A program made the position numbers and the translations under genes. Source: a virus (taxonomy: Duplodnaviria; Heunggongvirae; Uroviricota; Caudoviricetes). From it: a DNA stretch of 64,000 bases. Under the pieces are notes generated by a model. It saw nothing but the letters and a program-made list of their open reading frames with translations. It was not told where the DNA came from and made no database searches. This document shows positions 23,326-50,769 of this stretch, piece by piece; the first letter of the stretch is position 1; the number at the start of each line of letters is the position of its first letter. Location of the stretch: IMG/VR virus record IMGVR_UViG_3300026097_000001, one strand, 5' to 3'.

Positions 23326-24429
23326 ATGGCATTAAAATCAAACGGATCAACCTTCCTAGATGATAATCGAAACTATAGCGCAACAGCAAACACTGCGCTG
23401 GCAAATGATGCATATATCCTAATCGCAAACAACGATAGTGTTTCTTCTGATGGTTATTCGATATCCGATACAAAAGCGATTGCTGACGACGGTTTTGCGT
23501 TTAATCAGTTTAATGCGGAAGAGCAGGTGCTTAGTTTTAAAGATGCCCCAACGCCAAACGCATACGGATCAATAAGTGGATATGTTTCCGGTGGATCTAG
23601 TCCTTCACCTACAGACACACCAATTCAGGCTACGATAGAAAAGTTTTCTTTTGCATCGGATGGTAATGGGACTCTTGTTGGTGATTTAACACAAGCAAGA
23701 ACTAGTATACCTGCCGGACAATCGAGTGCCGAATCGGGCTATACTTCTGGTGGGTCCGCGCCACCTCAAACAACAACGATCGATAAGTTTCCTTTTGCTG
23801 CTGATGCTAACGCAACAGACGTCGGAGATTTGACACAAGCACGATCGGGCGTATCAGGACACTCGAGCGATGCGTCAGGCTACACATCTAACGGCACTTT
23901 GCCAGGGTTTGTAAATACAATTGACAAGTTTCCTTTTGCTACAGATGCAAATGCAACTGATGTTGGCGATACAACAGACGCCCGTGGATATTCTTCAGGT
24001 ACTTCGAGCTCAGAGAGCGGTTATTCTTCAGGTGGTTTCTCACCAAATGAAGTTAATAAAATTGATAAATTTCCTTTTGCATCTGATACAAATGGAACAG
24101 ACGTTGGTGATTTAACTGTAGCAAGATATTATGCTGGCGGAAACTCAAGCGATACTTTTGGTTATGCGTCCGGAGGAATAGGTCCTAGCAACAGGTCAGA
24201 AATCGACAAGTTTCCTTTTGCTGCTGATGCAAACGCGACTGACGTTGGCGATTTGGTAACCGCAACTAACTCATTAGCAGGTTCAAACAGTACCACATCG
24301 GGTTATTTGGCCGGAGAAAACCCCGGGACGATACAAAAGTTCCCCTTTGCGACTGATTCTAACTCAACAACCGTAGGTGATTTGACCGCGTCCGTAGGTA
24401 GGATTGGGCCAGCAGGCCAACAGGTATAA
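23326..24429 (+). CDS. Six-repeat putative beta-propeller protein, paralog 1
   Basis: Six repeats of GYxSGG...IDKFPFA.DxNxTDVGDL...GQS, ending GQQV. Confidence 0.75.
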   Translation: MALKSNGSTFLDDNRNYSATANTALANDAYILIANNDSVSSDGYSISDTKAIADDGFAFNQFNAEEQVLSFKDAPTPNAYGSISGYVSGGSSPSPTDTPIQATIEKFSFASDGNGTLVGDLTQARTSIPAGQSSAESGYTSGGSAPPQTTTIDKFPFAADANATDVGDLTQARSGVSGHSSDASGYTSNGTLPGFVNTIDKFPFATDANATDVGDTTDARGYSSGTSSSESGYSSGGFSPNEVNKIDKFPFASDTNGTDVGDLTVARYYAGGNSSDTFGYASGGIGPSNRSEIDKFPFAADANATDVGDLVTATNSLAGSNSTTSGYLAGENPGTIQKFPFATDSNSTTVGDLTASVGRIGPAGQQV

Positions 24430-24432
24430 TGA

Positions 24433-25509
24433 ATGGCTTTACAGTCGAATGGAATAATCTTTCTCGATGATAATAAAAACTTTTCAGCGCAAGGAAATAC
24501 AGTTCTTGCGAACGATGCTTCTATACTTATTGCAAACAACGACTCGGTATCTGGCGATGGTTATGCCATCATAGACGAGAAATCGATCGCAGACGACGGT
24601 TTTGACTTTAATCAGTTTAATTCAGAAGAGTTTTCGATAAGTTTTTTAGAAGGTTATAAGTTTCAAGGTACAGTGAGTGGATACACCTCTGGAGGGAGTC
24701 CTGGAGAGGTTACGATTGATAAGTTCCCATTTGCTTCAGACGGTAACGCGACTGGCGTCGGCGACTTAACAAGGGCTACTTATGGACTTGCCGGATCGTC
24801 GAGTGAAGAGTCAGGTTATACATCAGCCGGGCAATCGCCATCGGTATTTGATATAATTGACAAGTTTCCATTTTCAACTGATGCAAACGCAACGGACGTA
24901 GGCGATCTTACAATAGGAAGGTTTAGTCCGGCGGGTCAATCGAGTGAAGAGTCAGGTTACGTTTCAGGAGGGGATGTACCTGGATATTCTAACGTGATCG
25001 ACAAGTTTCCATTTTCAACTGATGCAAACGCGACAGACGTAGGTGACCTATCTCAAGCAAGGCCAGCAAGCGGAGGTCAATCCAGTGATGTTTCTGGGTA
25101 TACCTCAGGTGGAGGTAATGTATTGGCAACAATTGACAAGTTTCCATTTGCATCAGACGCTAACGCAACCGACGTAGGTGATTTAACAGTCGCAAGATCA
25201 AATACTCCGGCTGGCCAATCGAGTGAAGAGTCGGGTTATGCATCGGGCGGTTTTGGTCCGAGTTTTTCAAACGTTATTGATAAGTTCCCATTTGCTTCAG
25301 ACGGTAACGCAACGGACGTTGGCAATCTAACTCAAGCAAGATATTATGCCGCTGGGCAATCGAGTGATACGTCCGGCTATACATCAGGTGGTACGACGCC
25401 GCCTCATGCCAATACGATCGATAAGTTTCCATTTGCTTCGGATGGGTTTGCCGCCGATGTTGGTAATCTAGCACAGGCAAGATCAGCTGCCGCCGGGCAA
25501 CAAGTATAA
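24433..25509 (+). CDS. Six-repeat putative beta-propeller protein, paralog 2
   Basis: Same six-repeat architecture; its ~75-aa N-terminus is similar to paralog 1. Confidence 0.75.
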   Translation: MALQSNGIIFLDDNKNFSAQGNTVLANDASILIANNDSVSGDGYAIIDEKSIADDGFDFNQFNSEEFSISFLEGYKFQGTVSGYTSGGSPGEVTIDKFPFASDGNATGVGDLTRATYGLAGSSSEESGYTSAGQSPSVFDIIDKFPFSTDANATDVGDLTIGRFSPAGQSSEESGYVSGGDVPGYSNVIDKFPFSTDANATDVGDLSQARPASGGQSSDVSGYTSGGGNVLATIDKFPFASDANATDVGDLTVARSNTPAGQSSEESGYASGGFGPSFSNVIDKFPFASDGNATDVGNLTQARYYAAGQSSDTSGYTSGGTTPPHANTIDKFPFASDGFAADVGNLAQARSAAAGQQV

Positions 25510-25512
25510 ATA
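25505..25512 (+). promoter_or_regulatory. T4-type late promoter overlapping the stop codon of paralog 2
   Basis: GTA TAA ATA creates an exact TATAAATA. Confidence 0.65.
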
Positions 25513-25539
25513 GTCTAAAGATTTATAAGGATTTTATGA

Positions 25540-26517
25540 ATGCCTATTTCAATTAACAAAAGCTCGATTAACTTTGGTACCTATAGTATCTCGTTGCATC
25601 CTGATGGAATCGAGATCGACGGTAAGTTCAAGTACGGGTCGTATGGGACTCCACCCCCGCCACCTCCCACTGCATATGGTACAGTAAGTGGGTATACTTC
25701 AGGCGGTCGGTCATCGGGTGGTTATTCAAATGTAATCGACAAGTTTCCTTTTGCGAGCGACGCAAACGCAACTGATGTTGGCAACCTAGCTACATTATTC
25801 TCAGCAAGAGCCGGGCAGTCTAGTTCATCTTCTGGTTATGTGTCTGGGGGGTATAGCCCAAACACAACTACTATTGAAAAATTTCCTTTCGCAACTGATG
25901 GTAATGCAACAGACGTCGGTGATCTTACTCAAGGAAGGAACAGCCCGGCCGGTAATGAAAGTTCAGAGTCTGGTTACACTTCAGGCGGATACAGCGGTGG
26001 CGTTCAAAACACGATAGATAAATTTCCATTTGCAACCGATGCGAATGCAACTGATGTTGGTGATTTGACTCAAGCAAGGAACAGCGTGACTGGTCAATCA
26101 AGTTCGGTGAGTGGATATAATTCAGGCGGAGGCTCTCCTCCGAATACTACTACGATAGACAAGTTCCCATTCGCAACAGACGCAGATGCAACTGACGTTG
26201 GGGATCTAACGCAGGCAAGAAGAAATACAGCCGGGCAGAACAGCGATGATAATGGATACACTTCAGGAGGAGAATCTCCTATTGTTAATATCATCGATAA
26301 GTTTCCTTTTGCATCCGATGCAAATGCGACTGACGTCGGTGACTTAACACAAACGACCCGTGAAGCTGCAGGTCAATCGAGTACAGTGAGCGGATATACT
26401 TCTGGCGATGACATGACAAATGTAATCGACAAGTTTCCTTTTGCATCCGATGCAAATGCGACTGACGTCGGTGACTTAACACAAGCAAGAAAAAATGTCG
26501 CTGGACAACAAGTATAA
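25540..26517 (+). CDS. Six-repeat putative beta-propeller protein, paralog 3
   Basis: Six repeats, a PPPPPP linker after the N-terminal segment, ending GQQV. Confidence 0.75.
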   Translation: MPISINKSSINFGTYSISLHPDGIEIDGKFKYGSYGTPPPPPPTAYGTVSGYTSGGRSSGGYSNVIDKFPFASDANATDVGNLATLFSARAGQSSSSSGYVSGGYSPNTTTIEKFPFATDGNATDVGDLTQGRNSPAGNESSESGYTSGGYSGGVQNTIDKFPFATDANATDVGDLTQARNSVTGQSSSVSGYNSGGGSPPNTTTIDKFPFATDADATDVGDLTQARRNTAGQNSDDNGYTSGGESPIVNIIDKFPFASDANATDVGDLTQTTREAAGQSSTVSGYTSGDDMTNVIDKFPFASDANATDVGDLTQARKNVAGQQV

Positions 26518-26554
26518 ATAACAATACATTATTACTATATTATGAGGGAATGAA

Positions 26555-27115
26555 ATGAGTGAACACCAGTTTAATGTATTTAATACACCTATTTGGGGTC
26601 ACGTGTTAAGTCATGAAAAGTACCAGACCGAGGACTACCTTGAACGAGTCCTCGAGATCTACGACAGCGAACCATCCGCAGAAAAGAGTAACGCGGGTGG
26701 TGGTTGGCAGTCGAGAGACGATCTTCACAAAGAACCTATCTTTAAAGAGTTTATAAACAATACTCTCTTAAAATCAATCTCACAACCAATCCTGAAAGAA
26801 TACGGAATTGAAGATTTTGGTATTCAGAGTATGTGGGCAAATGTCAATCAAAAACATTCTTTTAATTACCAGCATACTCACGAGGGTTATCTCTCGGGTG
26901 TATATTATCTAAAGGTTCCGAAGAACAGCGGTAGATTAGTATTTACAAATCCAGCCGTTCGCAGTGAGTCCCATCCTATTCGTCAAAAGAACTATCCGGT
27001 AGTTCCACAAGAACTCGCATGTATTGTTTTTCCAAGTTGGCTCGAACACTACGTGGAACCGAATATGTCAGACGAAGCAAGAGTAAGTATTAGCTTTAAC
27101 GTAGGTAGATTATGA
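26555..27115 (+). CDS. Putative 2OG-Fe(II) oxygenase (TIGR02466-like)
   Basis: SMWAN.N.....NYQHTH...LSGVYY...GRLVF...IVFPSWLEHYV..N....RVSISFN. Confidence 0.8.
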   Translation: MSEHQFNVFNTPIWGHVLSHEKYQTEDYLERVLEIYDSEPSAEKSNAGGGWQSRDDLHKEPIFKEFINNTLLKSISQPILKEYGIEDFGIQSMWANVNQKHSFNYQHTHEGYLSGVYYLKVPKNSGRLVFTNPAVRSESHPIRQKNYPVVPQELACIVFPSWLEHYVEPNMSDEARVSISFNVGRL

Positions 27116-27684
27116 AACACCAAAAGATACAGATAAACGGCCGTGATATCGATATATACGATGATCTCTTTTCCTTTGATGAAGTAGCAAGAATGTTCAT
27201 TAAGGTTCGTCAGTACGCGTATACTGCAACAAACTTTAGCGACGGATTTCGTTCTCACATATACGGAGAAAAGCATAAACTCAAGTACACATTTGGATCA
27301 CGTGAAGAAGCAACTGAGTTTGGAATTATAAATAGACTCAATAGCGTGGATCAAAACATCGCTAAGAATTATATCGTTCATCGTCAGTATGTAAATCTTG
27401 CAACAACGAGCGATTTCGACACGATTCATATCGATGATAACCATCTAGAAAAACCAAAGACTGTTCTATATTATCCACATCCGGATTGGAACATTCATTG
27501 GGGAGGACATACATTCTTCTTTAATGAGACGCTCGATAATATAGAATATGCTGCGGCATATAAACCAGGGCGGTTGGTTGTTTTCGATGGATTGATTCCA
27601 CACTGTGGTTCCCCGCCCTTTAGTGGCGCTCAAGATAAAAGATACGTTGTGACTTGCAAATTTCAATATACGAATGGAGAATGA
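27112..27684 (+). CDS. 2OG-Fe(II) oxygenase, prolyl-hydroxylase-like
   Basis: IHIDD (HxD), YY....W...WGG.T.F, GRLVVFDG..PH, R.V. Confidence 0.78.
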   Translation: MKHQKIQINGRDIDIYDDLFSFDEVARMFIKVRQYAYTATNFSDGFRSHIYGEKHKLKYTFGSREEATEFGIINRLNSVDQNIAKNYIVHRQYVNLATTSDFDTIHIDDNHLEKPKTVLYYPHPDWNIHWGGHTFFFNETLDNIEYAAAYKPGRLVVFDGLIPHCGSPPFSGAQDKRYVVTCKFQYTNGE

Positions 27685-27690
27685 TTGATT

Positions 27691-29043
27691 ATGACTAATA
27701 CCGCGAATTATTTTGACCAGAATGGTTATGTTGTATTACAAAATGTTTTAACAAAGGAACAGTGCGACTCTCTTGTCGAACATATGTTTCAACTACACGC
27801 CGATGGAAAACTCGTTCAGGACGATCAGTGTCCACTGTCGGATGCTGTATACGGCGATGAGAAGTTTGATACGCTCCTACAAAACATTGCTGAGCCGCTA
27901 GGTAAAGCCGTTGGTAAGAGACTACTTCCAACTTATTCCTATGCTCGCATCTACCGTCCTGGTGACGTACTCAAAAAGCATAAGGATAGACCAGCCTGCG
28001 AGATTAGTACTACTCTTACTCTCGGATACGACGCAAAGGTTAACTGGCCAATTCATTTTGCGAACGACGATGGTACGATCGAGTCCGCAGTAGCAATGGA
28101 ACCTGGTGAGATGGCTGCCTATAAGGGTACCGAGATGGTTCATTGGAGAAAACCATTTAAAGGTAACTGGCACTGTCAAGTATTCCTACATTATGTAGAT
28201 GCAGATGGTCCACATGCAGATCAGGCAATGGACGGTCGTACTTCTCTAGGAGTTGATAAGAACCAAGAGACTCTTCGTCAGACGAATGCAAAGGAAGAAC
28301 CGAAACCAGTTCAACAGAATGCGGTTCAGCAGGCGAAGGCTGAAGGTAAGACGATCGTGAACCAACCGGTAATTAAAAAGCCAACGGCTCCAAACAACGA
28401 AATGTTGATCCCGGATCCAGTCTTTGGTGGCGTTATGCTACCAGGTCGTGATAATACTCTTCCTGGATACTATCCGATTAATAAGGATACGTTTCCTAAC
28501 CTTATGTTTACGAATGATGAATGCGATCGTATTATTCAGATCGCGAAGGACTCATATTCCGCGTCTGCAAGCGTAGGTGGTGGCGGTAAGGGTAGCGTTG
28601 CTCGTCAGATCCGTTCAGCTGAGATCTATCCGGTTGAAAACGTTGAAGAGAACCGTTGGATCTTTAAAAAGATCGCTGATATTGTGTCAGTCGCAAATGC
28701 CGTTCATTTTGACTACGATGTAACTGGTATCGAGTATTCGCTGCAGCTTATTCACTACGCATCAGACGCTGAAGTACCAGGCCACTATGACTGGCACGTC
28801 GACGCGGGTAACGGTACTGTCGCGACTCGTAAGATATCCTTTACAGCTCAGCTCACAGATTCAAATGCATATACGGGTTGCGATCTAATAGTTGACGACC
28901 ACGGAAATAAAATTCAGGCAGTTCGAGATCGAGGTTCTATCTCAATGTTCCCGAGCTATATGCCACACGTAGTTACTCCAATTGAAACAGGAGATCGTTA
29001 TGCTCTTGTGATTTGGATCCATGGACCAAGGAGGTTTAGATAA
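27691..29043 (+). CDS. Tandem two-domain 2OG-Fe(II) oxygenase
   Basis: Domain 1 has LKKHKDRPACEIS...HWR; domain 2 has YDWHVD...RKIS...FPSY.PH.V.P...G.RYALV.W. ATG at 27691. Confidence 0.82.
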   Translation: MTNTANYFDQNGYVVLQNVLTKEQCDSLVEHMFQLHADGKLVQDDQCPLSDAVYGDEKFDTLLQNIAEPLGKAVGKRLLPTYSYARIYRPGDVLKKHKDRPACEISTTLTLGYDAKVNWPIHFANDDGTIESAVAMEPGEMAAYKGTEMVHWRKPFKGNWHCQVFLHYVDADGPHADQAMDGRTSLGVDKNQETLRQTNAKEEPKPVQQNAVQQAKAEGKTIVNQPVIKKPTAPNNEMLIPDPVFGGVMLPGRDNTLPGYYPINKDTFPNLMFTNDECDRIIQIAKDSYSASASVGGGGKGSVARQIRSAEIYPVENVEENRWIFKKIADIVSVANAVHFDYDVTGIEYSLQLIHYASDAEVPGHYDWHVDAGNGTVATRKISFTAQLTDSNAYTGCDLIVDDHGNKIQAVRDRGSISMFPSYMPHVVTPIETGDRYALVIWIHGPRRFR

Positions 29044-29044
29044 T

Positions 29045-29995
29045 ATGGAAGAAGAAAAAAAGACCACTCGCGAGCTAGCAGTCTTTGAGGAGATTCGTAA
29101 GAGTGATATCGTAACGGCAGAGGACGCCGAAAAAATGAAGGTACCGATGGCTATGGTCTTTGGCCATGGAACCACTGGTAACCTTCCTAGCTTCGGTAAC
29201 AAGACTCTCAACGAGAACTCTGAGTTAGTTGATGCTGCTCTTAAGAACGTTGGCGAGTTAGGAAACATCTGGAACCACAGCCATACACAATGGATGTGGA
29301 AGCATATTAACTTTAGCTATCATAGCCCACATAAGAATATGCGTCAGATCTCGGCTGAACTGTCAAAAAAGAAGTCGGCTCTTAACGAGGCTAAGTGGCG
29401 TCATATTAAGAAGGAAGCTAAGATCCGTAAGCTGCAGGAAGAACTTCAGGAAGCGGTGAACCTTGATTATTGGAGAGAGGTGGATCTCAAAATTAAACTC
29501 GCGGAACTTCAAGAAGGTGCTATCGAGGGTATGACCTATATCGAGGGTGCTATGAAGGACGTCCTTGCGCTTCAAGAGATCTACGAGGACCTCAAGGAAA
29601 AGGCAAGTGGTTTCTCTGAGCACGATATTGAAAAAGAAGAGTCGATTACTCACCTAAAAAGAAGTATCGTTCAGTGTATTCGAGACGTTCGCCAATCCGG
29701 TCGGATTACAAAAGGTGAACAGGAATATATGGAGCAGATCGGTGTTAACCCGAGCAAGATGCAACGTATTATTCAAGAGTACGTAAAGAAAGAAGTCGAG
29801 CAGGATTCTTGGGGTAGCGAAGGACTGTTTGAATTTGTTGATGGCCTTTCTCGTGAACTCATCGAGAAACATAAGGTAGACATTACTCGTATGGAACTTC
29901 TTGGATATGATCCAAATCCAAACGAAGCTATCTCTTTCTCAAATAAGGTTGCGTTGCTCGACAACTTTACAGCAGAAGAGAACGATGAAGAATAA
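29045..29995 (+). CDS. Hypothetical coiled-coil-rich protein
   Basis: ATG at 29045 follows the upstream stop; long helical charged segments; no recognised motif. Confidence 0.6.
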   Translation: MEEEKKTTRELAVFEEIRKSDIVTAEDAEKMKVPMAMVFGHGTTGNLPSFGNKTLNENSELVDAALKNVGELGNIWNHSHTQWMWKHINFSYHSPHKNMRQISAELSKKKSALNEAKWRHIKKEAKIRKLQEELQEAVNLDYWREVDLKIKLAELQEGAIEGMTYIEGAMKDVLALQEIYEDLKEKASGFSEHDIEKEESITHLKRSIVQCIRDVRQSGRITKGEQEYMEQIGVNPSKMQRIIQEYVKKEVEQDSWGSEGLFEFVDGLSRELIEKHKVDITRMELLGYDPNPNEAISFSNKVALLDNFTAEENDEE

Positions 29996-30755
29996 CTTCT
30001 ACGATAGGTTTGTAGAACTAAAGAGGTATACCGATAGAGTTGGATCCATATACGGAACAGAAGACTTTTCGGTATACCTCTATTCTATGATTAAAATGAT
30101 GAAACCCGAGATCGTTGTTGAACTAGGAACAGGCCTCGGTTCTGCTATGTTATGGTCAGGCCTTGCTCTCGAGGAGAATAAGTTTGGTACGATACATACG
30201 GTAGATGACGGTAGTGAATGGTATCGCCTTAAGACTGCAAAGAATGCAATGGGTGATCATTATCGTGATGATTATAATGATTTCATAACGGATTTAATTC
30301 AGAAGTACGAGGTACAGGATCGAGTACACTTTTTAAACCAAAGGATCGATGTATTGGATCTAAAGAACATCGATATACTCTTTTCTGATTTTGCTCACGG
30401 AGTCTTTGACGTAACAAAATTATTAGTTGATTATATTCCAAAGATGAACGACCATTCTAAAATATATATTGATAGCGCAAGTACTCATTATTCTTCTTAC
30501 ATGGCAATTAATCGTATAGTCGATATATTAAACAGTGGAAGAATACCTAGAACGTTTTACGAAGTATTTGAAAGCAAAAATAATTTACAAAAAGAATACA
30601 ATATTGAAAATTTAAAACAAAAAGTCGAGAATACAACGTTTAGTGTAGAACATATGGTCGAAAATAAAGACAGAGACCAAAACAGTACATGTTGTATTAC
30701 TCTTACACCAATTGATATTTTTCCCTATCCAAGGAAGAATATAAGATCATTATAA
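29985..30755 (+). CDS. Class I SAM-dependent methyltransferase
   Basis: IVVELGTGLGSA glycine-rich motif, IHTVDD, DILFSD. ATG at 29985. Confidence 0.72.
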   Translation: MKNNFYDRFVELKRYTDRVGSIYGTEDFSVYLYSMIKMMKPEIVVELGTGLGSAMLWSGLALEENKFGTIHTVDDGSEWYRLKTAKNAMGDHYRDDYNDFITDLIQKYEVQDRVHFLNQRIDVLDLKNIDILFSDFAHGVFDVTKLLVDYIPKMNDHSKIYIDSASTHYSSYMAINRIVDILNSGRIPRTFYEVFESKNNLQKEYNIENLKQKVENTTFSVEHMVENKDRDQNSTCCITLTPIDIFPYPRKNIRSL

Positions 30756-30756
30756 T

Positions 30757-30764
30757 TATAAATA
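30757..30764 (+). promoter_or_regulatory. T4-type late promoter
   Basis: Exact TATAAATA upstream of 30808. Confidence 0.7.
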
Positions 30765-30807
30765 CCTTGAGAAACTCTTATTCAAACTATAACACCCGGA
30801 GGAAAAA

Positions 30808-31143
30808 ATGGCTGTAATAGAATATATGCTTCACAGAATTAATGGAAGTGCACGCGCTGAAATACCAGGTTGGGTCGGCGATCGTGGTCACTGGTTCAAC
30901 CCAGCGGACAACACATACATTGGTTGGGTAGACGACGTTCGTGATTACTACGTACCCGACACGGTTACATCTTTCACAAAAGCTGAGTTCGTAACGCGTC
31001 TACTTACAATGCATGGAACAACACCGTTTCAGAATATGAACAACGAGGATCCTGATGTGGCTCCAACGAATATGACTGATGCTGAAGTGACTACGATGGC
31101 TGAAACCTGGTACGACGATTTTGTAGCTAAGAACGGTAGCTAA
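30808..31143 (+). CDS. Hypothetical protein, 111 aa
   Basis: Strong GGAGG RBS and a late promoter upstream. Confidence 0.7.
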   Translation: MAVIEYMLHRINGSARAEIPGWVGDRGHWFNPADNTYIGWVDDVRDYYVPDTVTSFTKAEFVTRLLTMHGTTPFQNMNNEDPDVAPTNMTDAEVTTMAETWYDDFVAKNGS

Positions 31144-31292: not shown

Positions 31293-32279
31293 ATGGCAAC
31301 TGAGATTAAATTTAACGCTGATGGTACAATTAACTTCGGTGACTACACTCTTACCTTTACTGACGAAGGGTTTGAGTTCGACGGGGCTATTCTAGCGACT
31401 GAGTATGAGCAGAGATACTCGACCCAAGGTTCAACGAGTGGTTATACTTCAGGTGGTGATGCGCCTGGTGATGTAAATACCATCGATAAGTTTCCTTTCG
31501 CTGCTGATGCCAATGCAACGGACGTCGGCGATTTGACTCAGGCAAGAGAGCGGCCAACAGGTCAATCTAGCTCAACATCAGGATACACGTCCGGTGGCGC
31601 TAGGCCTGCGGTTAATATAATTGACAAGTTTCCTTTTGCTGCCGACGCAAATGCAACTGATGTTGGCGATTTGACGCAGGGAAGATATGGTTTGGCTGGC
31701 CAATCTAGCTCAGAAAATGGTTATACTTCTGGTGGAGGGTACCCAACTTCAAACATTATTGACAAATTTCCTTTTGCAACAGACGCAAATGCAACGGACG
31801 TCGGGGATCTAACGCAAGGAAGGTACAATACTACCGGCCAGTCCAGCTCAGAAAATGGTTATACTTCCGGTGGAGGGTTAGGCCCTGCTTTTGACACGAT
31901 TGATAAATTTCCTTTTGCATCTGATGGAAATGCTACTGACGTGGGTAATTTAACTCAAGCAAGAAAAGCTTTGGCCGGAAATGGTCAACAAAGTGATGCG
32001 TCTGGATATACTTCAGGTGGTTGGACTCCACCTTTTAGGAATACAATTGACAAGTTTCCATTTGCAACTGATGCTAATGCAACCGACGTCGGCGACCTAA
32101 CACAAGCCCGATCGAGCGCAGCAGGCCAATCAAGTACTACATCTGGCTATGTTTCCGGGGGTAATGCGCCACCTAGTTCGAATGTAATTGATAAGTTTCC
32201 TTTTGCGTCTGATGGAAACGCAACGGATGTTGGTGATTTAACACAAGCAAGGGAATATGGAGCAGGTCATCAGGTATAA
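31293..32279 (+). CDS. Six-repeat putative beta-propeller protein, paralog 4
   Basis: Six repeats ending GHQV; N-terminal INFGDY segment resembles paralog 3. Confidence 0.75.
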   Translation: MATEIKFNADGTINFGDYTLTFTDEGFEFDGAILATEYEQRYSTQGSTSGYTSGGDAPGDVNTIDKFPFAADANATDVGDLTQARERPTGQSSSTSGYTSGGARPAVNIIDKFPFAADANATDVGDLTQGRYGLAGQSSSENGYTSGGGYPTSNIIDKFPFATDANATDVGDLTQGRYNTTGQSSSENGYTSGGGLGPAFDTIDKFPFASDGNATDVGNLTQARKALAGNGQQSDASGYTSGGWTPPFRNTIDKFPFATDANATDVGDLTQARSSAAGQSSTTSGYVSGGNAPPSSNVIDKFPFASDGNATDVGDLTQAREYGAGHQV

Positions 32280-32322: not shown

Positions 32323-33237
32323 ATGGCAATAAGAATTACTCAGGATAAGATATCAAGTGTAACGGTTACTCCACCGCCTTCAGTACAGGGAAGTATAAGC
32401 GGTTACTCTTCGGGAGGCAATCCTGGAAACGTTAACACAATTGAAAAGTTTTCTTTTTCTTCTGACGGCAATGCGACTGACGTTGGCGATCTCGTATTAG
32501 GTGGAAGATATGCAGCAGGGCAATCGAGCTCGGTATCTGGTTATATGTCAGGCGGTAATGGGCCTCCTTTAATGTCAAGTACAATCCAAAAATTTCCATT
32601 TGCGGTTGATGGTAATGGAACAGATGTTGGGGATTTATCGCAGGCAAGGAATCAAGCATCTGGGCAAATGTCTGGTGCATCTGGGTATAGCTCAGGTGGA
32701 ACCGGGCCAGGGTCGCTCAACACGATTGATAAGTTTCCATTTGCTACTGACACGAATGCTACCGATGTCGGCGATCTAGTGGCGCCAGTAAGATTTAATT
32801 CCGGTCAATCTTCCACAGAATCTGGTTATTCATCAGGTGGATATAATGGCCCCGTTCAAAATGTAATTCAAAAATTTCCATTTGCTTCTGATGCAAATGC
32901 GACTGATGTTGGAGATTTAACACAGGCAAGAGGGTCTCTAGGAGGGCAATCATCATCTGAGAACGGTTATTCCACGGGCGGGACTCCTGCCGGCATAAAC
33001 ACTATTGATAAGTTTCCATTCGCAACGGATGCAAATGCAACGGATGTTGGCAACCTAACACAGGGTAGAGGTTTTACCACGGGCCAGTCTAGCACAGAAT
33101 CTGGATACACAACTGGTGGATGGCAGCCGGGCCTATCTAACGTAATAGATAAGTTTCCTTTTGCCTCTGATGCAAATGCAACCGACGTCGGTGACATGAC
33201 GCAGGGTGTGTATGGTCCTACCGGTAATCAACATTAA
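32323..33237 (+). CDS. Six-repeat putative beta-propeller protein, paralog 5
   Basis: Six repeats and a short N-terminus, ending GNQH. Confidence 0.75.
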   Translation: MAIRITQDKISSVTVTPPPSVQGSISGYSSGGNPGNVNTIEKFSFSSDGNATDVGDLVLGGRYAAGQSSSVSGYMSGGNGPPLMSSTIQKFPFAVDGNGTDVGDLSQARNQASGQMSGASGYSSGGTGPGSLNTIDKFPFATDTNATDVGDLVAPVRFNSGQSSTESGYSSGGYNGPVQNVIQKFPFASDANATDVGDLTQARGSLGGQSSSENGYSTGGTPAGINTIDKFPFATDANATDVGNLTQGRGFTTGQSSTESGYTTGGWQPGLSNVIDKFPFASDANATDVGDMTQGVYGPTGNQH

Positions 33238-34227
33238 ATGGCATGGTTCGTTAAAGGTGTAGAAGTCGTAGACGATGCCGCTATCATCTCTACAGACAAG
33301 ACTAAGTTCGTAATGAACGATCACCTAAAAGTGTTTGAAGTACCTCCGTCTCAAGCACAGGGATCCGTGTCTGGTTATACTTCCGGTGGATATGTTCCAG
33401 GATCCACGCTCAACACGGTTCAAAAGTTTCCTTTTGCTTCTGATGCAAACTCAACTGACGTTGGTGATTTATCTCAGGCAAGAACATATGCGTCGGGCCA
33501 GTCATCTTCAACGCACGGTTATACATCGGGCGGTCTTGCCCCTCCTCACCAGTCTCGAATTGATAAGTTTCCTTTTGCTTCTGACGGTAACGCTTCTCTC
33601 GTAGGTGGTTTGTCTGACTCAAGGTCTCTCTTAGCTGGTCATACAAGCACGACAGCAGGATATGCGTCGGGTGGTTTTGACACTGAGGCTCCTACTGGAA
33701 AAACTGTTATTGATAAGTTTTTGTTTGCGTCTGATGGAGACGGTGGAACAAACATTGGTGATCTAACTCAGGCAAGACAAGGCGTCGCAGGGCAGTCGAG
33801 TGTAGATTTTGGATATACGTCCGGTGGTTTTAATCCACCAAACTATTTTAATACGATAGATAAGTTTCCTTTTGCTACTGATGCGAGTGCAACGGATGTT
33901 GGAGATCTAACTCAAGCGAGATATATCGCGTCTGGACAGAACAGTAATGAATCTGGTTACACATCGGGCGGTAACGCTCCACCATATGTAGATACGATAG
34001 ATAAGTTTCCATTCGCAACTGATACAAACGCAACGGACGTTGGCGATCTAACCGATGCGAGAGGATACTCGGCAGGTCAATCGAGCACGAGTTCTGGATA
34101 TACAGCAGCTGGATTTTCTACCATTACGAATACGATAGATAAGTTTCCTTTTGCGGCCGATGCAAATGCAACTGACGTCGGGGACCTATTACAAAGTATC
34201 TACGGTCCAACGGGTCAACAAGTATAA
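33238..34227 (+). CDS. Six-repeat putative beta-propeller protein, paralog 6
   Basis: Six repeats ending GQQV; N-terminus resembles paralog 9. Confidence 0.75.
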   Translation: MAWFVKGVEVVDDAAIISTDKTKFVMNDHLKVFEVPPSQAQGSVSGYTSGGYVPGSTLNTVQKFPFASDANSTDVGDLSQARTYASGQSSSTHGYTSGGLAPPHQSRIDKFPFASDGNASLVGGLSDSRSLLAGHTSTTAGYASGGFDTEAPTGKTVIDKFLFASDGDGGTNIGDLTQARQGVAGQSSVDFGYTSGGFNPPNYFNTIDKFPFATDASATDVGDLTQARYIASGQNSNESGYTSGGNAPPYVDTIDKFPFATDTNATDVGDLTDARGYSAGQSSTSSGYTAAGFSTITNTIDKFPFAADANATDVGDLLQSIYGPTGQQV

Positions 34228-35351
34228 ATAGACTAAACAAAGTAGGATTTATTCATGCCAGTCGACATAACAGAAAACTTCTTCTTTACAGAGTATTCCG
34301 ACGGAGTCTACTTTAACGGTAAGGCAACCGCAACTGCATTTAATTTACCAGCACCGCCAGATCCTACACAAGCACAGGGTACTACGAGTGGGTACACTGC
34401 CGGGGGGGCTGGTCCATCAGGTAGAGTAAATACGATTCAAAAGTTTTCTTTATCGTCTGACGGCAACGCAACCGACGTTGGTGATCTGACCGGTACTCGG
34501 TCAGGTGTTACTGGAAATTCAAGTGATGTATCCGGTTATGCGAATGGAGGCTCGTTTTTTCCACCTGTTCAATATTTTAATATAATTGAAAAATACCCAT
34601 TTGCTTCTGACGGTAACGCATCTGATGTAGGAGATTTAACAGTAGCAAGGCAGGAGGCCTCGGGCCAAATTAGTACGACGTCGGGCTATGTTTCAGGTGG
34701 TTTTTCTCCACCTCAAGTGAATACTATTGATAAGTTTCCATTTGCGACCGATACAAATGCAACAGACGTAGGTGATCTGTTGGAAATAAAAAATCGTGCA
34801 GCTGGACAATCAAGCACCTCAGATGGGTACGTTTCTGGCGGCAACCCCGAGGTTAATGTAATTCAAAAGTTTCCTTTTGCTGCCGATGTTAATGCGACGG
34901 ACGTCGGCGATTTAACACAGGCAAACATAGGCCCAACTGGAAATTCAAGTGATGTATCTGGCTATAGCGCAGGCGGATTTATACCAACCGGCGTTGTTAA
35001 TACGATTGACAAGTTTCCATTTGCGTCTGATGCAAATGCAACGGATGTTGGTGATTTGACACAGGCCAGAAACCTGGCGGCAGGTGTATCAAGTAATGCG
35101 TCTGGGTACGTTGCAGGCGGATTTGAACCTGTGTCAACAAGAGCAAATGCAATAGATAAGTACCCTTTTGCTTCTGATGCAAACGCAACTGATGTTGGCG
35201 ATCTAATAGTAGGAAACACGACATCTGGTTCTGGCGCTCAGGTATAAATAGACTAAACAAAGTAGGATTTATTCATGCCAGTCGATATAACAGAAAACTT
35301 CTTCTTTACAGAGTATTCCGACGGAGTCTACTTTAACGGTAAGGCGACCGC
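34222..35351 (+). repeat. ~110-bp direct repeat (34222-34331 and 35242-35351)
   Basis: The copies differ at two positions and cover a stop codon, TATAAATA, the RBS region and the first ~25 codons of paralogs 7 and 8. Confidence 0.9.
34255..35247 (+). CDS. Six-repeat putative beta-propeller protein, paralog 7
   Basis: Six repeats ending GAQV. Confidence 0.75.
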   Translation: MPVDITENFFFTEYSDGVYFNGKATATAFNLPAPPDPTQAQGTTSGYTAGGAGPSGRVNTIQKFSLSSDGNATDVGDLTGTRSGVTGNSSDVSGYANGGSFFPPVQYFNIIEKYPFASDGNASDVGDLTVARQEASGQISTTSGYVSGGFSPPQVNTIDKFPFATDTNATDVGDLLEIKNRAAGQSSTSDGYVSGGNPEVNVIQKFPFAADVNATDVGDLTQANIGPTGNSSDVSGYSAGGFIPTGVVNTIDKFPFASDANATDVGDLTQARNLAAGVSSNASGYVAGGFEPVSTRANAIDKYPFASDANATDVGDLIVGNTTSGSGAQV

Positions 35352-35520
35352 GGATGCGTTTAATGCGCCAACTCCAGTTCCAAACTCTTACGGAGTAACA
35401 TCAGGTTATGTTAGTTCACCCAATACGATTCAAAAGTTCTCATTTGCTTCTGACGGAAACGCAACCAGCGTTGGTAATCTCCTACAGGCCACGACAACCA
35501 GGGCAGGACATCAGGTATAA
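35275..35520 (+). CDS. Single-repeat paralog 8 (internally deleted copy of paralog 7; possibly a pseudogene)
   Basis: N-terminus identical to paralog 7, a single repeat (IQKFSFASDGNATSVGNL) and the normal GHQV-stop end. Confidence 0.65.
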   Translation: MPVDITENFFFTEYSDGVYFNGKATADAFNAPTPVPNSYGVTSGYVSSPNTIQKFSFASDGNATSVGNLLQATTTRAGHQV

Positions 35521-40175: not shown

Positions 40176-40177
40176 AA

Positions 40178-46668: not shown

Positions 46669-46669
46669 T

Positions 46670-47398: not shown

Positions 47399-47400
47399 TA

Positions 47401-49113: not shown

Positions 49114-49114
49114 T

Positions 49115-49795
49115 ATGGCAACGAACGTATTCTTTAATAATTATAATTATTCTAACGAACAGACTCTCATCGATGACCTGGTGATTGAGTCCATTCGCAT
49201 GTATGGGATAGACACATACTACCTTACACGTAGCCTCCAGGCCGTCGATAACATTCTTAACGAGGACGATCTCTCTATCTTTGACACTGCGTATGAGATG
49301 GAAATGTACGTTAAGAGTGTTGATGGTTTCCAAGGAGAAGGCGACTTCCTGAGCAGGTTTGGTCTACAGATTCGAGATCAAGTTACATTTACCGTTGCTA
49401 TAAGAACGTTTGAAAAGAACGTAACGAACATAGATCCAAGTATACTAAGACCCAAGGAAGGCGAGCTCGTATACTTCCCAATGGTAAACAAGTTTTTTAA
49501 AGTTACTCACGTTGAACACGAGAGTGTATTCTATCAGAGTGGTGCCCTTCAAGTATTTGATCTTCAGTGTGAACTGTTTGAATACTCTAACGAAAGGTTC
49601 CAGACGGGGATCGTCGATATCGATGAGTTCTTTGACGATATCAACACTACTTCGGTTACTTCCCTCGAGACTCTCAAGACAAAAGATCCTATTGCGAACA
49701 ATATCGATTTTGAAGAAGAGGGTGATGATATAATAGACTTCACCGAGATAGATCCGTTCAGCGAAGCAATTACAAACCCAACAAATACTGGATAA
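49115..49795 (+). CDS. gp14: Neck protein gp14
   Basis: EQ.L..DL..ESI..YG, FLS.FGL...D, PKEG.LVYFP, VEHE..FYQ.G. Confidence 0.93.
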   Translation: MATNVFFNNYNYSNEQTLIDDLVIESIRMYGIDTYYLTRSLQAVDNILNEDDLSIFDTAYEMEMYVKSVDGFQGEGDFLSRFGLQIRDQVTFTVAIRTFEKNVTNIDPSILRPKEGELVYFPMVNKFFKVTHVEHESVFYQSGALQVFDLQCELFEYSNERFQTGIVDIDEFFDDINTTSVTSLETLKTKDPIANNIDFEEEGDDIIDFTEIDPFSEAITNPTNTG

Positions 49796-49800
49796 GAGAT

Positions 49801-50769
49801 ATGGTATATAAAATTCAAGGTACAGAAGTTGTAGACTCATCTGGTAATATTGTACCGGGAGACAAGACTAAATTTGTTATAAACCAAAGTTTAAACATAA
49901 CCACAGGCCCAGAAAATGGCCAAGGATCGACTAGTGGATACACTTCAGGCGGAGACGCACCGCCAGACTCAACAGCAATCGATAAGTTTCCTTTTGCTTC
50001 TGATGCGAATGCAACTAACGTGGGTGACTTAACTCAAGCAAGGGATCACCCTGCTGGTCAATCGAGTACTGAGAACGGTTATACATCAGGTGGGGCCCCA
50101 TCAAATAAGGATACTATTGACAAGTTTCCTTTTGCTTCCGATGGCAATGCCACTGATGTTGGTGACCTAACCGACCCCAGAGCAAGGGTCTCAGGCCAAT
50201 CAAGTACCGAAAGCGGTTACACCACCGGCGGTGACACCCCAACGTCAACTATAATTGACAAGTTTCCTTTTGCAGCGGATGCTAATGCCACTGATGTTGG
50301 TGATCTAACCCAGTCCAGGAATTCTGCCACCGGGCAATCGAGCACCGAAAGCGGTTATACTTCAGGCGGTTTCACACCGCCCTCTAGGAATACAATTGAT
50401 AAGTTTCCATTCGCGTCTGATGCAAATGCAACTGATGTCGGTGACTTAACTCAAGCGAGGGATGGGCCAGCCGGCCAATCAAGCACCGTATCTGGATATA
50501 CTTCAGGCGGTAACGCACCACCCCTTGTAAATACAATCGATAAATTTCCTTTTGCTTCTGACGCAAATGCAACGGATGTCGGTGACTTAACTGAAACTAA
50601 AGAAGATGTTGCAGGGCAGTCTAGTACTGCGAGTGGATACACCTCGGGTGGCTCAACTCCACCGCGATCCAATGTTATTGAAAAATTTCCTTTTGCGTCT
50701 GATGTGAATGCAACTGATGTCGGTGACTTAACCCAGGCACGCGGCGCGCCAGCCGGCCAGCAGGTATAA
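49801..50769 (+). CDS. Six-repeat putative beta-propeller protein, paralog 9
   Basis: Same six repeats and GQQV end; located between gp14 and gp15. Confidence 0.75.
   Translation: MVYKIQGTEVVDSSGNIVPGDKTKFVINQSLNITTGPENGQGSTSGYTSGGDAPPDSTAIDKFPFASDANATNVGDLTQARDHPAGQSSTENGYTSGGAPSNKDTIDKFPFASDGNATDVGDLTDPRARVSGQSSTESGYTTGGDTPTSTIIDKFPFAADANATDVGDLTQSRNSATGQSSTESGYTSGGFTPPSRNTIDKFPFASDANATDVGDLTQARDGPAGQSSTVSGYTSGGNAPPLVNTIDKFPFASDANATDVGDLTETKEDVAGQSSTASGYTSGGSTPPRSNVIEKFPFASDVNATDVGDLTQARGAPAGQQV

What the first reader, a model, noticed from the sequence alone, without database searches (positions are those of the whole stretch)
23326..50769. Nine-member family of six-repeat propeller-like proteins expanded inside a phage morphogenesis region
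Seen: eight full genes and one truncated gene share a ~47-aa repeat, GY(T/V)SGG-(variable)-IDKFPFA(S/T/A)DxNxTDVGDLT(Q)AR-(variable)-GQSS. Each full gene has six copies and a terminal GxQV that supplies the strand missing from the first repeat. Established: six such repeats with a permuted closure are typical of Kelch-like beta-propellers, whose variable loops form a ligand face. Inference: this is an array of virion-displayed adhesins or lectins with a constant scaffold and variable loops, diversified by recombination among 49 similar DNA units. I recognise no named family or described system for it.
Basis: partly seen in the sequence, partly recalled or inferred. Interest (0 to 1): 0.8.

Follow-up and report, generated by a model that had tools for sequence, protein, structure and literature searches.

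The report
Hypervariable Kelch-fold propeller genes in marine phage
An uncultured marine T4-like phage carries eight genes (plus a one-blade remnant) for six-bladed Kelch-type propeller proteins with a nearly frozen scaffold and fast-changing loops on one face; they belong to a huge, unnamed, phage-only family and most likely serve as host-surface binding heads on the virus particle, which nobody has yet shown directly.

Summary
Eight genes have six ~47-aa units each, and one 81-aa ORF has one unit, giving 49 units.

**Fold.** AlphaFold2 (pLDDT 93) and Foldseek give a six-bladed Kelch-type propeller: TM 0.77-0.80 by model and 0.87-0.94 by target against KLHL12, KEAP1 and KLHL3, at 15-18% identity. 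No Pfam family passes its cutoff. The only family hit is phrog_19111, of unknown function.

**Distribution.** The family is very large (8,100 clusters at 50% identity) and essentially phage-only. In relatives it forms tandem arrays of up to 9 genes, almost always with six units per gene.

**Variation.** It is concentrated in the B-C and D-A loops, which form the ligand face in Keap1. dN/dS there is about 1.1, against 0.18 for the rest of the repeat and 0.06 for the strands.

**Context.** The genes sit in late (TATAAATA) transcription units inside the host-recognition island, often directly after S74-processed fibre genes. They travel with a cassette of 2OG oxygenases, a sulfotransferase, orf324 and orf111.

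**Not shown.** Virion display and lectin or adhesin function are plausible but unproven. Recombination among units is documented only as occasional events.

**Earlier scan notes.** The scan noted arrays read the same way on other DNA (e1-5351987, e1-5388626, e1-5388614); I did not compare their sequences with this family.

The parts
23326..24429 (+). Propeller gene A (367 aa): 84-aa N-terminal tail plus six units. It starts 3 nt after the stop of the collagen-like, S74-ended fibre gene 20935-23322.
24433..25509 (+). Propeller gene B (358 aa): N-terminal tail homologous to that of A, six units. Its Q-V-TAA end lies inside a TATAAATA late-promoter box (25505-25512).
25540..26517 (+). Propeller gene C (325 aa): six units. 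Units 5 and 6 share a 54-nt identical tract. Its end overlaps TATAAATA (26513-26520), which precedes the 2OG oxygenase gene.
31293..32279 (+). Propeller gene D (328 aa): six units. It is the first gene of the second array and lies downstream of orf111, whose late promoter is at 30757.
32323..33237 (+). Propeller gene E (304 aa): the shortest N-terminal tail (26 aa), six units, ends in NQH.
33238..34227 (+). Propeller gene F (329 aa): N-terminal tail related to that of H, six units. Its end overlaps TATAAATA (34223-34230).
34255..35247 (+). Propeller gene G (330 aa): six units, directly preceded by a late promoter. Its end overlaps TATAAATA (35243-35250).
35275..35520 (+). One-blade remnant T (81 aa). 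The promoter, RBS and first 26 codons are about 98% identical to G. One G1-like unit (83% nt identity over 60 nt) is joined in frame to a GHQV end.
49801..50769 (+). Propeller gene H (322 aa): six units, lying between neck gene gp14 and tail-terminator gene gp15. This is the protein that was modelled.
26555..31143 (+). Co-inherited cassette between the two arrays: three 2OG-Fe(II) oxygenases (26555-27115, 27112-27684, 27685-29043), orf324 (29021-29995), a methyltransferase (29901-30755) and orf111 (30808-31143).
35551..36381 (+). Sulfotransferase (Sulfotransfer_3/1), late promoter at 35516. It is the most frequent downstream neighbour of propeller arrays in relatives.
20935..23322 (+). Collagen-like fibre with a C-terminal Peptidase_S74 chaperone, immediately upstream of array 1. 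A paralogous fibre lies at 40178-42142.

Best explanation
The nine ORFs belong to a very large, phage-specific family of six-bladed Kelch-type beta-propellers. Each protein is a short N-terminal tail (26-84 aa, three or four types) followed by a propeller. The strands and C-D loops of the propeller are almost invariant. The B-C and D-A loops, which lie together on one face, are hypervariable in sequence and, for B-C, in length.

The genes are read from T4-type late promoters inside the phage's host-recognition island. Most likely the proteins are late, virion-attached binding heads: accessory adhesins or receptor-binding modules. On this reading the N-terminal tail anchors them to fibres, baseplate or neck, and the variable face contacts host surface structures. 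The ligand may be glycan, since the loops are rich in Ser, Thr, Ala, Gly, Pro and Tyr and almost uncharged.

The repertoire grows and turns over by whole-gene duplication, replacement and loss. Point changes and indels in the loops add to it, and recombination between units is occasional.

Shown: repeat anatomy, fold, where variation lies, late-promoter motifs, synteny, and phage-only distribution. Inferred: presence in the virion, the anchoring mode, and the ligand.
For: **Fold.**
- The AF2 model of H has pLDDT 93 and pTM 0.87, with four strands per unit.
- Foldseek against the PDB: the top 50 hits are all Kelch domains or designed Kelch proteins (SAKe6), E about 1e-19 to 1e-20, rmsd about 2 A. 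The Swiss-Prot AFDB search gives the same picture.
- A profile search of PDB sequences aligns the units in register with SAKe6FR (E 2e-4) and KLHL12 (E 0.012).

**Variable face.**
- Over 1,026 units, entropy is 3.2-3.9 bits at B-C states 7, 8, 11, 12 and D-A states 37-39. It is mostly below 1 bit in the strands and at most C-D loop positions, with peaks near 2 bits.
- In nine pairs, dN/dS is 1.08 in these loops and 0.18 in the rest of the repeat (Fisher p 3e-21). It is 0.06 in the strands.
- B-C and D-A loops form the Keap1 ligand pocket (PMC12314335).

**Fast turnover.**
- In syntenic relatives the flanking genes are 87-97% identical, but the best propeller match is only 59-68%.
- A marine contig is 98% identical over F and joins to the sulfotransferase gene through 977 nt, where this genome has the 1,267 nt of G plus T.

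**Late and structural context.**
- All 21 TATAAATA boxes lie on the + strand, against 5 expected. They sit directly upstream of C, G and T and at the heads of the units containing A, D-F and H.
- The genome encodes a gp55-type late sigma factor.
- H lies between gp14 and gp15.
- In relatives, arrays start right after S74-ended fibre genes in 13 non-redundant cases.
- The region corresponds to the host-recognition cluster described for pelagimyophages and cyanomyophages (PMC7029224).

**Domain partners.** Some homologues carry an N-terminal Mtd_N (tropism-determinant fibre anchor), Gly_rich_2 or Laminin_G_3 domain.

**Phage-only.** There are 8,100 representative clusters, but only 9 small MAG contigs among 185,579 species genomes.

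**Precedents.** The Kelch protein CBB_552 was found in virions by mass spectrometry (PMC5259590). Propeller domains occur in the receptor-binding proteins of phi11, PRD1 and phiKZ (PMC4901313).
Against: - There is no direct evidence that any member is in a virion. No proteomics or cryo-EM exists for a carrier.
- The window's own N-terminal tails match no known fibre anchor.
- Loop dN/dS of about 1 is not significantly above 1 (p 0.35), so relaxed constraint cannot be separated from diversifying selection.
- The top fold matches are eukaryotic protein-binding Kelch domains, not lectins.
- The extreme conservation of the opposite face, the same in all six blades, is not explained by a simple adhesin model.
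Confidence: 0.6

Rival explanations
1. The propellers are client proteins of the co-inherited modification cassette (2OG oxygenases, PAPS-dependent sulfotransferase, methyltransferase, orf324, orf111). On this reading the invariant motif in every blade, or the conserved Pro in the B-C loops, is hydroxylated, sulfated or glycosylated. The family then forms a chemically decorated virion coat rather than acting only as a plain protein adhesin. This is not exclusive of virion display.
For: - A 2OG oxygenase lies in 22 of 26 loci of at least 16 kb, and orf324 in 19 of those 26.
- Minimal cassettes travel with propellers at other genome positions: gp13-propeller-2OG_c-orf324-gp14 in L050, and propellers-orf324-2OG_c-orf111 in L078.
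- The cultured Synechococcus phage S-SKS1 (genus Llyrvirus) has propeller genes only about 31% identical to H. They also flank a sulfotransferase and sit beside 2OG oxygenases.
- L079 adds an APS kinase next to an array.
- The cassette genes carry late promoters.
- 45 of 49 units carry D/E-x-N-x-S/T. Family-wide the figure is 74%.
Against: - The cassette also occurs without propellers within 21 kb (Marine virus AG-345-E08). A sulfotransferase in S-SCSM1 sits in a replication region.
- The genome has no STT3-type or GT41-type N-glycosyltransferase.
- The D-x-N-x-T motif aligns with the canonical Kelch 'DPxTxxW' C-D turn, so it is explained structurally.
- The collagen-like fibres are alternative substrates.
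- Conserved synteny within one phage lineage could explain most of the linkage.
Confidence: 0.15
2. The propellers are intracellular binders, not virion parts. They would act as host-takeover or anti-defence adaptors that use variable loops to capture variable host proteins, as poxvirus Kelch proteins do.
For: - The closest structures are protein-binding substrate adaptors (KLHL, Keap1).
- Multigene expansion with fast-evolving binding surfaces also fits an arms race with host defences.
- There is no signal peptide or transmembrane segment.
Against: - There is no BTB/BACK or other effector domain.
- The genes lie in late transcription units among fibre, neck and tail genes.
- Homologues are fused to fibre-type N-terminal domains.
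- Anti-defence genes of T4-like phages are typically early genes (general knowledge).
Confidence: 0.1
3. The propellers are head, neck or tail-surface decoration proteins. They would give weak, non-specific adherence to particles or polymers in seawater, in the manner of T4 Hoc, rather than host-receptor specificity.
For: - H lies in the neck module between gp14 and gp15.
- The pseudo-six-fold constant face could sit on a hexameric site (inference).
- The related Kelch proteins of jumbo phages are annotated as virion structural proteins, and phage CBB has tail whiskers (PMC5259590).
Against: - The position between gp14 and gp15 holds only in close relatives.
- Most copies follow fibre genes.
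- Hypervariability and gene turnover fit specific recognition better than generic adherence.
Confidence: 0.1
4. The propellers are enzymes with a Kelch fold, such as a NanM-like sugar mutarotase or a galactose-oxidase-like enzyme, acting on the sugars made by the neighbouring glycan genes.
For: The neighbourhood is rich in sugar-nucleotide and glycosyltransferase genes. Kelch-fold enzymes exist (general knowledge).
Against: The face where Kelch-fold proteins bind their ligands is the hypervariable one. There is no conserved pocket signature. Eight paralogues with divergent loops are not expected of an enzyme.
Confidence: 0.03

Closest known systems
Kelch-repeat beta-propeller domains of BTB-Kelch adaptors (KLHL12, KLHL3, KEAP1) and designed SAKe6 propellers
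   Same: - Six four-stranded blades of about 47 aa.
- A GG doublet after strand B, an aromatic residue in strand C and an Arg before strand A.
- A ligand face made of the B-C and D-A loops.
- A C-terminal strand that appears to close blade 1.
- TM 0.77-0.80 by model and 0.87-0.94 by target.
   Different: - Only 15-18% identity, and no Pfam Kelch model hits.
- No BTB/BACK domains.
- The Kelch Trp in strand D is replaced by V-G-D-L.
- Blades are unusually alike, about 61% identical to one another.
- Phage-only distribution.
Kelch-like virion proteins of jumbo phages (vB_PcaM_CBB CBB_552; PhiPA3, Noxifer and Phabio 'virion structural proteins')
   Same: They are Kelch-fold proteins encoded by phages, often in several copies. 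CBB_552 was found in particles by mass spectrometry (PMC5259590). They appear as structural matches in BFVD.
   Different: A different sequence family: 13-16% identity for the PhiPA3, Noxifer, Phabio and CBB Kelch-like rows, and 11% for the CBB row annotated 'structural protein'. They match standard Kelch signatures (InterPro). No comparable near-identical blades or hypervariable loop pattern has been reported for them.
Propeller-containing phage receptor-binding proteins (phi11 Gp45 five-bladed platform; PRD1 P2; phiKZ gp131C seven-bladed)
   Same: A beta-propeller used, or proposed to be used, as the host-binding module of a tail device (PMC4901313).
   Different: Different blade numbers and families. 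Those propellers are domains of larger trimeric proteins, whereas here the propeller follows only a short N-terminal tail.
T2/T6/S16-type gp38 tail-fibre tip adhesins
   Same: A functional analogy only: a gene just after the fibre gene, a constant scaffold holding hypervariable receptor-binding loops, and a monomer that could cap a trimeric fibre tip (general knowledge).
   Different: An unrelated fold (polyglycine-II sandwich versus propeller). The docking of propeller A on the processed fibre tip could not be assessed (see Tried and rejected).
PHROG phrog_19111 and uncharacterised proteins of Synechococcus phage S-SKS1
   Same: True sequence relatives: E 1e-17 to 1e-31 against phrog_19111 and 31% identity to S-SKS1. 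S-SKS1 has about 35 units in several genes, again beside a sulfotransferase and a 2OG oxygenase.
   Different: These entries have no function, name or publication. S-SKS1 belongs to another phage genus (Llyrvirus), not this T4-like lineage.

Membership tests
Kelch-type beta-propeller fold (structural superfamily) | Six blades, each a four-stranded antiparallel sheet of about 44-56 residues | tested here: met
   47-aa units, six per gene. DSSP on the AF2 model gives four strands per unit at pLDDT 93.
Kelch-type beta-propeller fold (structural superfamily) | Close structural superposition on solved Kelch domains | tested here: met
   Foldseek PDB hits to KLHL12, KEAP1, KLHL3 and SAKe6: E about 1e-19 to 1e-20, TM 0.77-0.80 by model and 0.87-0.94 by target, rmsd 1.7-2.7 A. 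Swiss-Prot AFDB gives the same.
Kelch repeat sequence family (Pfam Kelch_1 to Kelch_6) | Match to a Pfam Kelch model above the gathering score | tested here: not met
   No Kelch family is listed even at E <= 1 for any of the eight proteins.
Kelch repeat sequence family (Pfam Kelch_1 to Kelch_6) | Motif: GG doublet, aromatic residue in strand C, Trp in strand D, Arg/Lys before strand A | tested here: inconclusive
   GG (96%), F (96%) and R (78%) are conserved and align in register with SAKe6FR and KLHL12. The Trp position is V-G-D-L. Profile E-values are weak (2e-4 and 0.012).
Kelch-type beta-propeller fold (structural superfamily) | Ring closure by a C-terminal strand that completes blade 1, as in Keap1 | tested here: inconclusive
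   The model has a terminal strand at E318-321, and the first unit begins at strand B. Coordinates could not be inspected, so the pairing is inferred.
BTB-Kelch (KLHL) substrate adaptors | N-terminal BTB and BACK domains that recruit cullin-3 | tested here: not met
   The N-terminal parts are 26-84 aa with no Pfam domain.
Phage receptor-binding proteins / tail-fibre adhesins | Physical presence in the virion at fibre, baseplate or neck | not testable with these tools
   No proteomics or cryo-EM exists for any carrier. There is only context and a precedent in another Kelch family (PMC5259590).
Phage receptor-binding proteins / tail-fibre adhesins | Gene located in the tail-fibre or host-recognition module and expressed late | tested here: met
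   The genes lie between the baseplate genes (3509-9155) and gp13-gp15, interleaved with fibre genes. TATAAATA late promoters and a gp55 homologue are present.
Phage receptor-binding proteins / tail-fibre adhesins | Recognisable N-terminal virion-anchor domain | tested here: not met
   None is found in the window's paralogues. Mtd_N is present in some homologues (P0198; L078).
Phage receptor-binding proteins / tail-fibre adhesins | Distal surface that evolves much faster than the scaffold | tested here: met
   Loop dN/dS is 1.08 against 0.18 for the rest of the repeat, Fisher p 3e-21. Entropy profile.
Propeller lectins (tachylectin-2, AAL, RSL, PLL) | Structural or sequence relation to a known lectin propeller, with one conserved sugar site per blade | tested here: not met
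   None appears among the top 50 PDB or 30 Swiss-Prot fold matches. Sugar binding itself was not testable.
Substrates of bacterial N-glycosylation | D/E-x-N-x-S/T sequon | tested here: met
   45 of 49 units carry it; 761 of 1,026 family-wide. The motif coincides with the Kelch C-D turn.
Substrates of bacterial N-glycosylation | A cognate oligosaccharyltransferase (STT3/PglB) or cytoplasmic N-glycosyltransferase (GT41) is available | tested here: not met
   Neither PF02516 nor PF13844 matches the 201-kb genome. Host enzymes are unknown.

The most novel reading that the evidence does not exclude
The propellers and the late-expressed enzyme cassette that travels with them (P4H-like and Oxy_5 2OG oxygenases, a PAPS-dependent sulfotransferase with an APS kinase in some relatives, a methyltransferase, and the conserved unknowns orf324 and orf111) form one system. 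In it, the invariant motif repeated in every blade is enzymatically hydroxylated, sulfated or glycosylated. The result would be a multivalent, chemically decorated virion surface protein of a kind not described for phages.
Probability: 0.15. Interest if true: 0.85.

Novelty: new variant of a known kind. Interest (0 to 1): 0.6.

Why it matters
Host recognition is the least understood part of the abundant uncultured marine T4-like phages. This family has thousands of sequence clusters, occurs essentially only in phages, and is arrayed inside the host-recognition island. Its loop variability is antibody-like.

If the proteins are the binding heads of these phages, their loops would record host range in metagenomes. 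The scaffold would also be a natural, highly symmetric, loop-tolerant binder framework, close to the designed SAKe propellers.

The repeated linkage with oxygenase and sulfotransferase genes raises a second question that can be tested: whether phage particles carry enzymatically modified surface proteins.

The near-identical blades and the one-blade remnant also bear on how propellers arise and are maintained.

Tried and rejected
- **Complex prediction.** Three copies of the processed fibre tip (residues 635-709 of 20935-23322) were folded with propeller A. The result was no verdict (score 0.02), so it is not evidence either way.
- **orf324.** It has no Pfam, PHROG or Atlas match. The AF2 model is all-alpha at pLDDT 68 with no PDB fold match at E <= 0.001. 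There is no tblastn match in the phage collection. Its function stays unknown.
- **orf111.** Only unnamed viral clusters turned up.
- **Diversity-generating retroelement.** The genome has no reverse transcriptase, so this idea was rejected.
- **Cyanophage identity.** There is no psbA. The best TerL match is 59% to Sinorhizobium phages phiN3 and phiM12. The host remains unknown.
- **N-glycosylation.** No STT3 or GT41 is present.
- **Near-identical DNA in the phage collection.** None was found.
- **Positional orthology or concerted evolution of blades.** Neither is seen. Identity is 61-62% for same gene, same position, and neither.
- **Stop codon overlapping a late promoter as a family rule.** It holds for 5 of 9 genes here but only 11 of 166 in relatives, so it is lineage-specific.
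- **N-terminal tails.** Single-linkage clustering lumps 148 of 171 tails together and was not informative.
- **RNA evidence.** No RNA holder is listed among the sequencing runs. The contigs laid list no long piece over H, which proves nothing.
- **Sulfotransferase specificity.** Homologues also occur without propellers (AG-345-E08, S-SCSM1), so the link is not obligatory.

Full report
**Setting.** The window is the minus strand of positions 80,694-144,693 of a complete 201-kb IMG/VR virus record with terminal repeats. It is a T4-like myovirus:
- baseplate wedge genes at 3509-9155;
- neck genes gp13 (48370-49113) and gp14 (49115-49795);
- gp15, gp16, the large terminase and the sheath from 50771 onward.

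The terminase is closest to Sinorhizobium phages phiN3 and phiM12 (59%) and about 50% identical to cyanophage terminases. The genome has no psbA. Related DNA occurs in marine plankton metagenomes. The host is unknown.

**Observation.** I built a profile from twelve units and searched all six frames. It finds exactly 49 units, all on the + strand:
- six in each of genes A (23326-24429), B (24433-25509), C (25540-26517), D (31293-32279), E (32323-33237), F (33238-34227), G (34255-35247) and H (49801-50769);
- one in the 81-aa ORF T (35275-35520).

The rest of the genome has no further copy.

**Fold.** An AlphaFold2 model of H, built on an alignment of 51 homologues, has pLDDT 93 and pTM 0.87. 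Residues 1-44 are of lower confidence. After that come four strands per unit.
- The 50 best Foldseek matches in the PDB are all Kelch domains (KLHL12, KEAP1, KLHL3, KLHL2) or designed Kelch propellers (SAKe6). E-values are about 1e-19 to 1e-20, TM is 0.77-0.80 by model and 0.87-0.94 by target, rmsd is about 2 A, and identity is 15-18%. The reviewed AlphaFold DB entries give the same picture.
- At sequence level no Pfam Kelch model matches, even at E <= 1.
- A family profile does align in register with SAKe6FR (E 2e-4) and KLHL12 (E 0.012). GYxSGG aligns on 'YaxGG', IDKF on 'VExY', SDxNAT on 'DPETDTW', and R on R.

So this is a remote, unnamed branch of the Kelch fold. The only library family it hits is phrog_19111, of unknown function.

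**Where the variation lies.** I analysed 171 non-identical six-unit genes (1,026 units) from this window and 64 related viral loci.
- Most positions in the strands and the C-D loop 'SDxNAT' are conserved: entropy is mostly below 1 bit, with peaks near 2 bits.
- B-C loop states 7, 8, 11 and 12 reach 3.2-3.9 bits and carry indels. D-A hairpin-tip states 37-39 reach 3.3-3.7 bits.
- In a four-stranded meander the B-C and D-A loops lie on the same face. In Keap1 they form the ligand pocket (PMC12314335).
- Nine gene pairs are 75-99.7% identical. Across them, Nei-Gojobori dN/dS is 1.08 in the hypervariable loop positions, 0.18 in the rest of the repeat and 0.06 in the strands alone. The contrast is highly significant (Fisher p 3e-21). 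The loop value is not significantly above 1 (p 0.35).
- The loops are rich in Ser, Thr, Ala, Gly, Pro and Tyr and are almost free of Lys, Glu and Asp.

Positive selection as such is not proven.

**How the repertoire evolves.**
- Units are about equally distant from one another. Amino-acid and nucleotide identities are 61-62% whether units share a gene, share a blade position, or share neither. That means there is neither recognisable positional orthology nor general concerted evolution. The scaffold is simply held at one consensus.
- A few tracts do show recombination or conversion: 54 identical nt between C5 and C6, 35 and 32 nt within B, and the G/T duplication.
- T shares the preceding stop/promoter, the RBS and 26 codons with G at about 98%. 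It then diverges, then carries a G1-like unit core (83% over 60 nt), and ends in GHQV. It is an in-frame one-blade derivative of a G-like gene.
- Close relatives show no T-like gene at that position. For example, L013 goes from a six-unit gene straight to the sulfotransferase.
- Turnover is mainly at gene level. Relatives whose flanking genes are 87-97% identical have propellers only 59-68% identical to their best match here, no closer than the paralogues are to each other (51-73%).
- Array sizes differ between relatives. L030 has four genes where this window has A-C.
- One marine contig is 98% identical over F and joins to the sulfotransferase through 977 nt, instead of the 1,267 nt of G plus T (X2 record 1).
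- The genome has no reverse transcriptase, so a diversity-generating retroelement is excluded.

**Family size and range.**
- A word-indexed search finds more than 4,689 relatives, none of them named.
- An exhaustive search of 1.8 billion cluster representatives finds 8,100 at E <= 1e-3 and 1,546 at E <= 1e-30. Many have long N-terminal extensions.
- Some extensions are Mtd_N (the N-terminal domain of the Bordetella phage tropism determinant), Gly_rich_2 or Laminin_G_3.
- Among 185,579 prokaryotic species genomes, only nine small MAG contigs carry the family. It is effectively phage-only.
- In 64 viral loci, 231 of 260 unit-bearing ORFs have exactly six units, and arrays reach nine genes.
- Among cultured phages only Synechococcus phage S-SKS1 matched. 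It has about 35 units in several genes.

**Context and expression.**
- The T4 late-promoter box TATAAATA occurs 21 times, always on the + strand, against 5 expected. The genome encodes a gp55-type late sigma factor.
- Boxes lie 27-35 nt upstream of C, G, T, 2OG_a and the sulfotransferase gene. They also head the units that contain A (17352 and 17419), D-F (30757) and H (48338).
- In five genes the Q-V-TAA end is itself part of the box (CAxGTATAAATA). This is specific to this lineage: 11 of 166 genes in relatives show it.
- Gene A starts 3 nt after the stop of a collagen-like fibre gene that ends in a Peptidase_S74 chaperone. In relatives, arrays begin right after such S74-ended genes in 13 non-redundant cases.
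- The region between the baseplate genes and gp13/gp14 corresponds to the 'host recognition cluster' described in pelagimyophages and cyanomyophages. That paper does not mention propellers (PMC7029224).

**A recurrent enzyme cassette.**
- The two arrays flank a block made of 2OG_a, 2OG_b, 2OG_c (a two-domain protein with a P4H-type C-terminal domain), orf324, a methyltransferase and orf111. A sulfotransferase follows array 2.
- Across relatives whose gp13 is only 37-44% identical, this block persists next to propellers. 2OG_c occurs in 37 of 64 loci, orf324 in 32, orf111 in 31 and the sulfotransferase in 23. Among loci of at least 16 kb, 22 of 26 have a 2OG oxygenase.
- Small versions occur at other positions. 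L050 has gp13-propeller-2OG_c-orf324-gp14. L078 has two Mtd_N genes followed by orf324, 2OG_c and orf111. One of the two was confirmed as a six-unit propeller; the unit scan found no units in the other. L077 has a propeller followed by an Oxy_5 oxygenase. L079 adds an APS kinase.
- In S-SKS1, which belongs to a different phage genus (Llyrvirus), the propeller genes also surround a sulfotransferase and abut 2OG oxygenases.
- The link is not obligatory. Marine virus AG-345-E08 has the enzymes without propellers within 21 kb, and the S-SCSM1 sulfotransferase sits elsewhere.
- orf324 is highly conserved (63% mean column identity). Its model is all-alpha and matches no known fold or family.

Whether the enzymes act on the propellers, on the fibres, on glycans, or on none of these cannot be decided here.

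**The D-x-N-x-S/T motif.** It is present in 45 of 49 units and in 74% of 1,026 units. It sits in the C-D turn and aligns with the canonical Kelch 'DPxTxxW' turn. The genome has neither an STT3-type nor a GT41-type N-glycosyltransferase. A structural explanation is therefore sufficient, and glycosylation remains a minor possibility.

**Interpretation.** The best-supported reading (about 0.6) is that these are late, virion-attached binding heads of the host-recognition apparatus. A short N-terminal tail would serve as the anchor. The nearly invariant propeller is the scaffold, and the B-C/D-A face is the variable contact surface. The repertoire is renewed by gene gain, loss and replacement.
- Precedents exist. 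A Kelch protein was found in virions of jumbo phage CBB (PMC5259590). Propeller domains occur in the receptor-binding proteins of phi11, PRD1 and phiKZ (PMC4901313).
- The conceptual analogue is the gp38 adhesin of T2- and S16-type phages, with its constant scaffold and hypervariable loops (general knowledge).
- Rivals are a modified-coat system (0.15, not exclusive), intracellular adaptors (0.10), generic decoration (0.10) and enzymes (0.03).
- Two things remain unexplained: the extreme conservation of the opposite face, repeated six times, and the strict count of six blades. Both could reflect docking on a three-fold or six-fold symmetric virion site. That is inference only.

**Novelty.** The fold is known. 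Kelch or propeller proteins in phage particles have precedents. This sequence family sits unnamed in PHROGs and in UniProt and BFVD entries. What I did not find described is the family as such: its size, its restriction to phages, its array organisation in the host-recognition island, its scaffold/loop evolutionary pattern, and its linkage with the oxygenase and sulfotransferase cassette. The scan has noted arrays read the same way on other genomes (e1-5351987, e1-5388626, e1-5388614); I did not compare their sequences with this family. I rate it a new variant of a known kind, with interest 0.6.

Noticed in passing
window 17449-23322 and 38085-42142: A three-gene fibre module occurs twice as paralogues. 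It consists of a tail-fibre-like protein (1040 or 540 aa), a small protein (139 or 154 aa), and a collagen-like fibre with a Peptidase_S74 C-terminal chaperone (795 or 654 aa). The collagen repeats are G-x-Q rich and almost proline-free, although P4H-type oxygenases are encoded nearby.
   Followed up: partly
window 25505, 26513, 34223, 35243, 35516: The last sense codon and the stop codon of five propeller genes (GTA-TAA), read with the ATA that follows, spell the T4 late-promoter box TATAAATA, which drives the next gene; the preceding CAx (Gln) codon lies outside the box. Each duplicated gene therefore brings a promoter for its downstream neighbour. The arrangement is lineage-specific: 11 of 166 genes in relatives show it.
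   Followed up: yes
window 29021-29995 (orf324): A highly conserved 324-aa protein with many invariant Trp, His, Lys and Arg residues accompanies propeller arrays in 32 of 64 loci. It has no Pfam, PHROG or Atlas family. The predicted all-alpha fold (pLDDT 68) has no PDB match.
   Followed up: partly
L079:13163-13936: A relative encodes an APS kinase (the PAPS-forming step) directly after a three-gene propeller array, in the same island as the sulfotransferase. This suggests a phage-supplied sulfation pathway.
   Followed up: no
L075 and L001 (Synechococcus phage S-SKS1, record 201.8-208.0 kb and 1-1.9 kb): This cultured phage of another genus (Llyrvirus) carries about 35 propeller units in several genes around a sulfotransferase (SWZG_00288) and next to a 2OG oxygenase (SWZG_00002). 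It would be a tractable system for proteomics.
   Followed up: partly
window 34248-35515: A contig from a marine plankton metagenome is 98% identical over gene F. It reaches the sulfotransferase gene through 977 nt that do not align, in place of G plus T (1,267 nt). This indicates population-level replacement at this slot.
   Followed up: partly
window 9167-14548: A 1,793-aa protein (phrog_358 and phrog_877, unknown function) lies just after the baseplate wedge genes. It is probably the large VrlC-like structural protein that marks the start of the host-recognition island in related phage groups.
   Followed up: no
window 42166-48159: A block of sugar-related genes lies between fibre module 2 and gp13. 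It includes a 626-aa methyltransferase-containing protein, a GT25+GT2 two-domain glycosyltransferase, a DUF6445 protein and a cytidylyltransferase/mannose-6-P isomerase-type protein. Close relatives conserve it at 80-96% identity.
   Followed up: no
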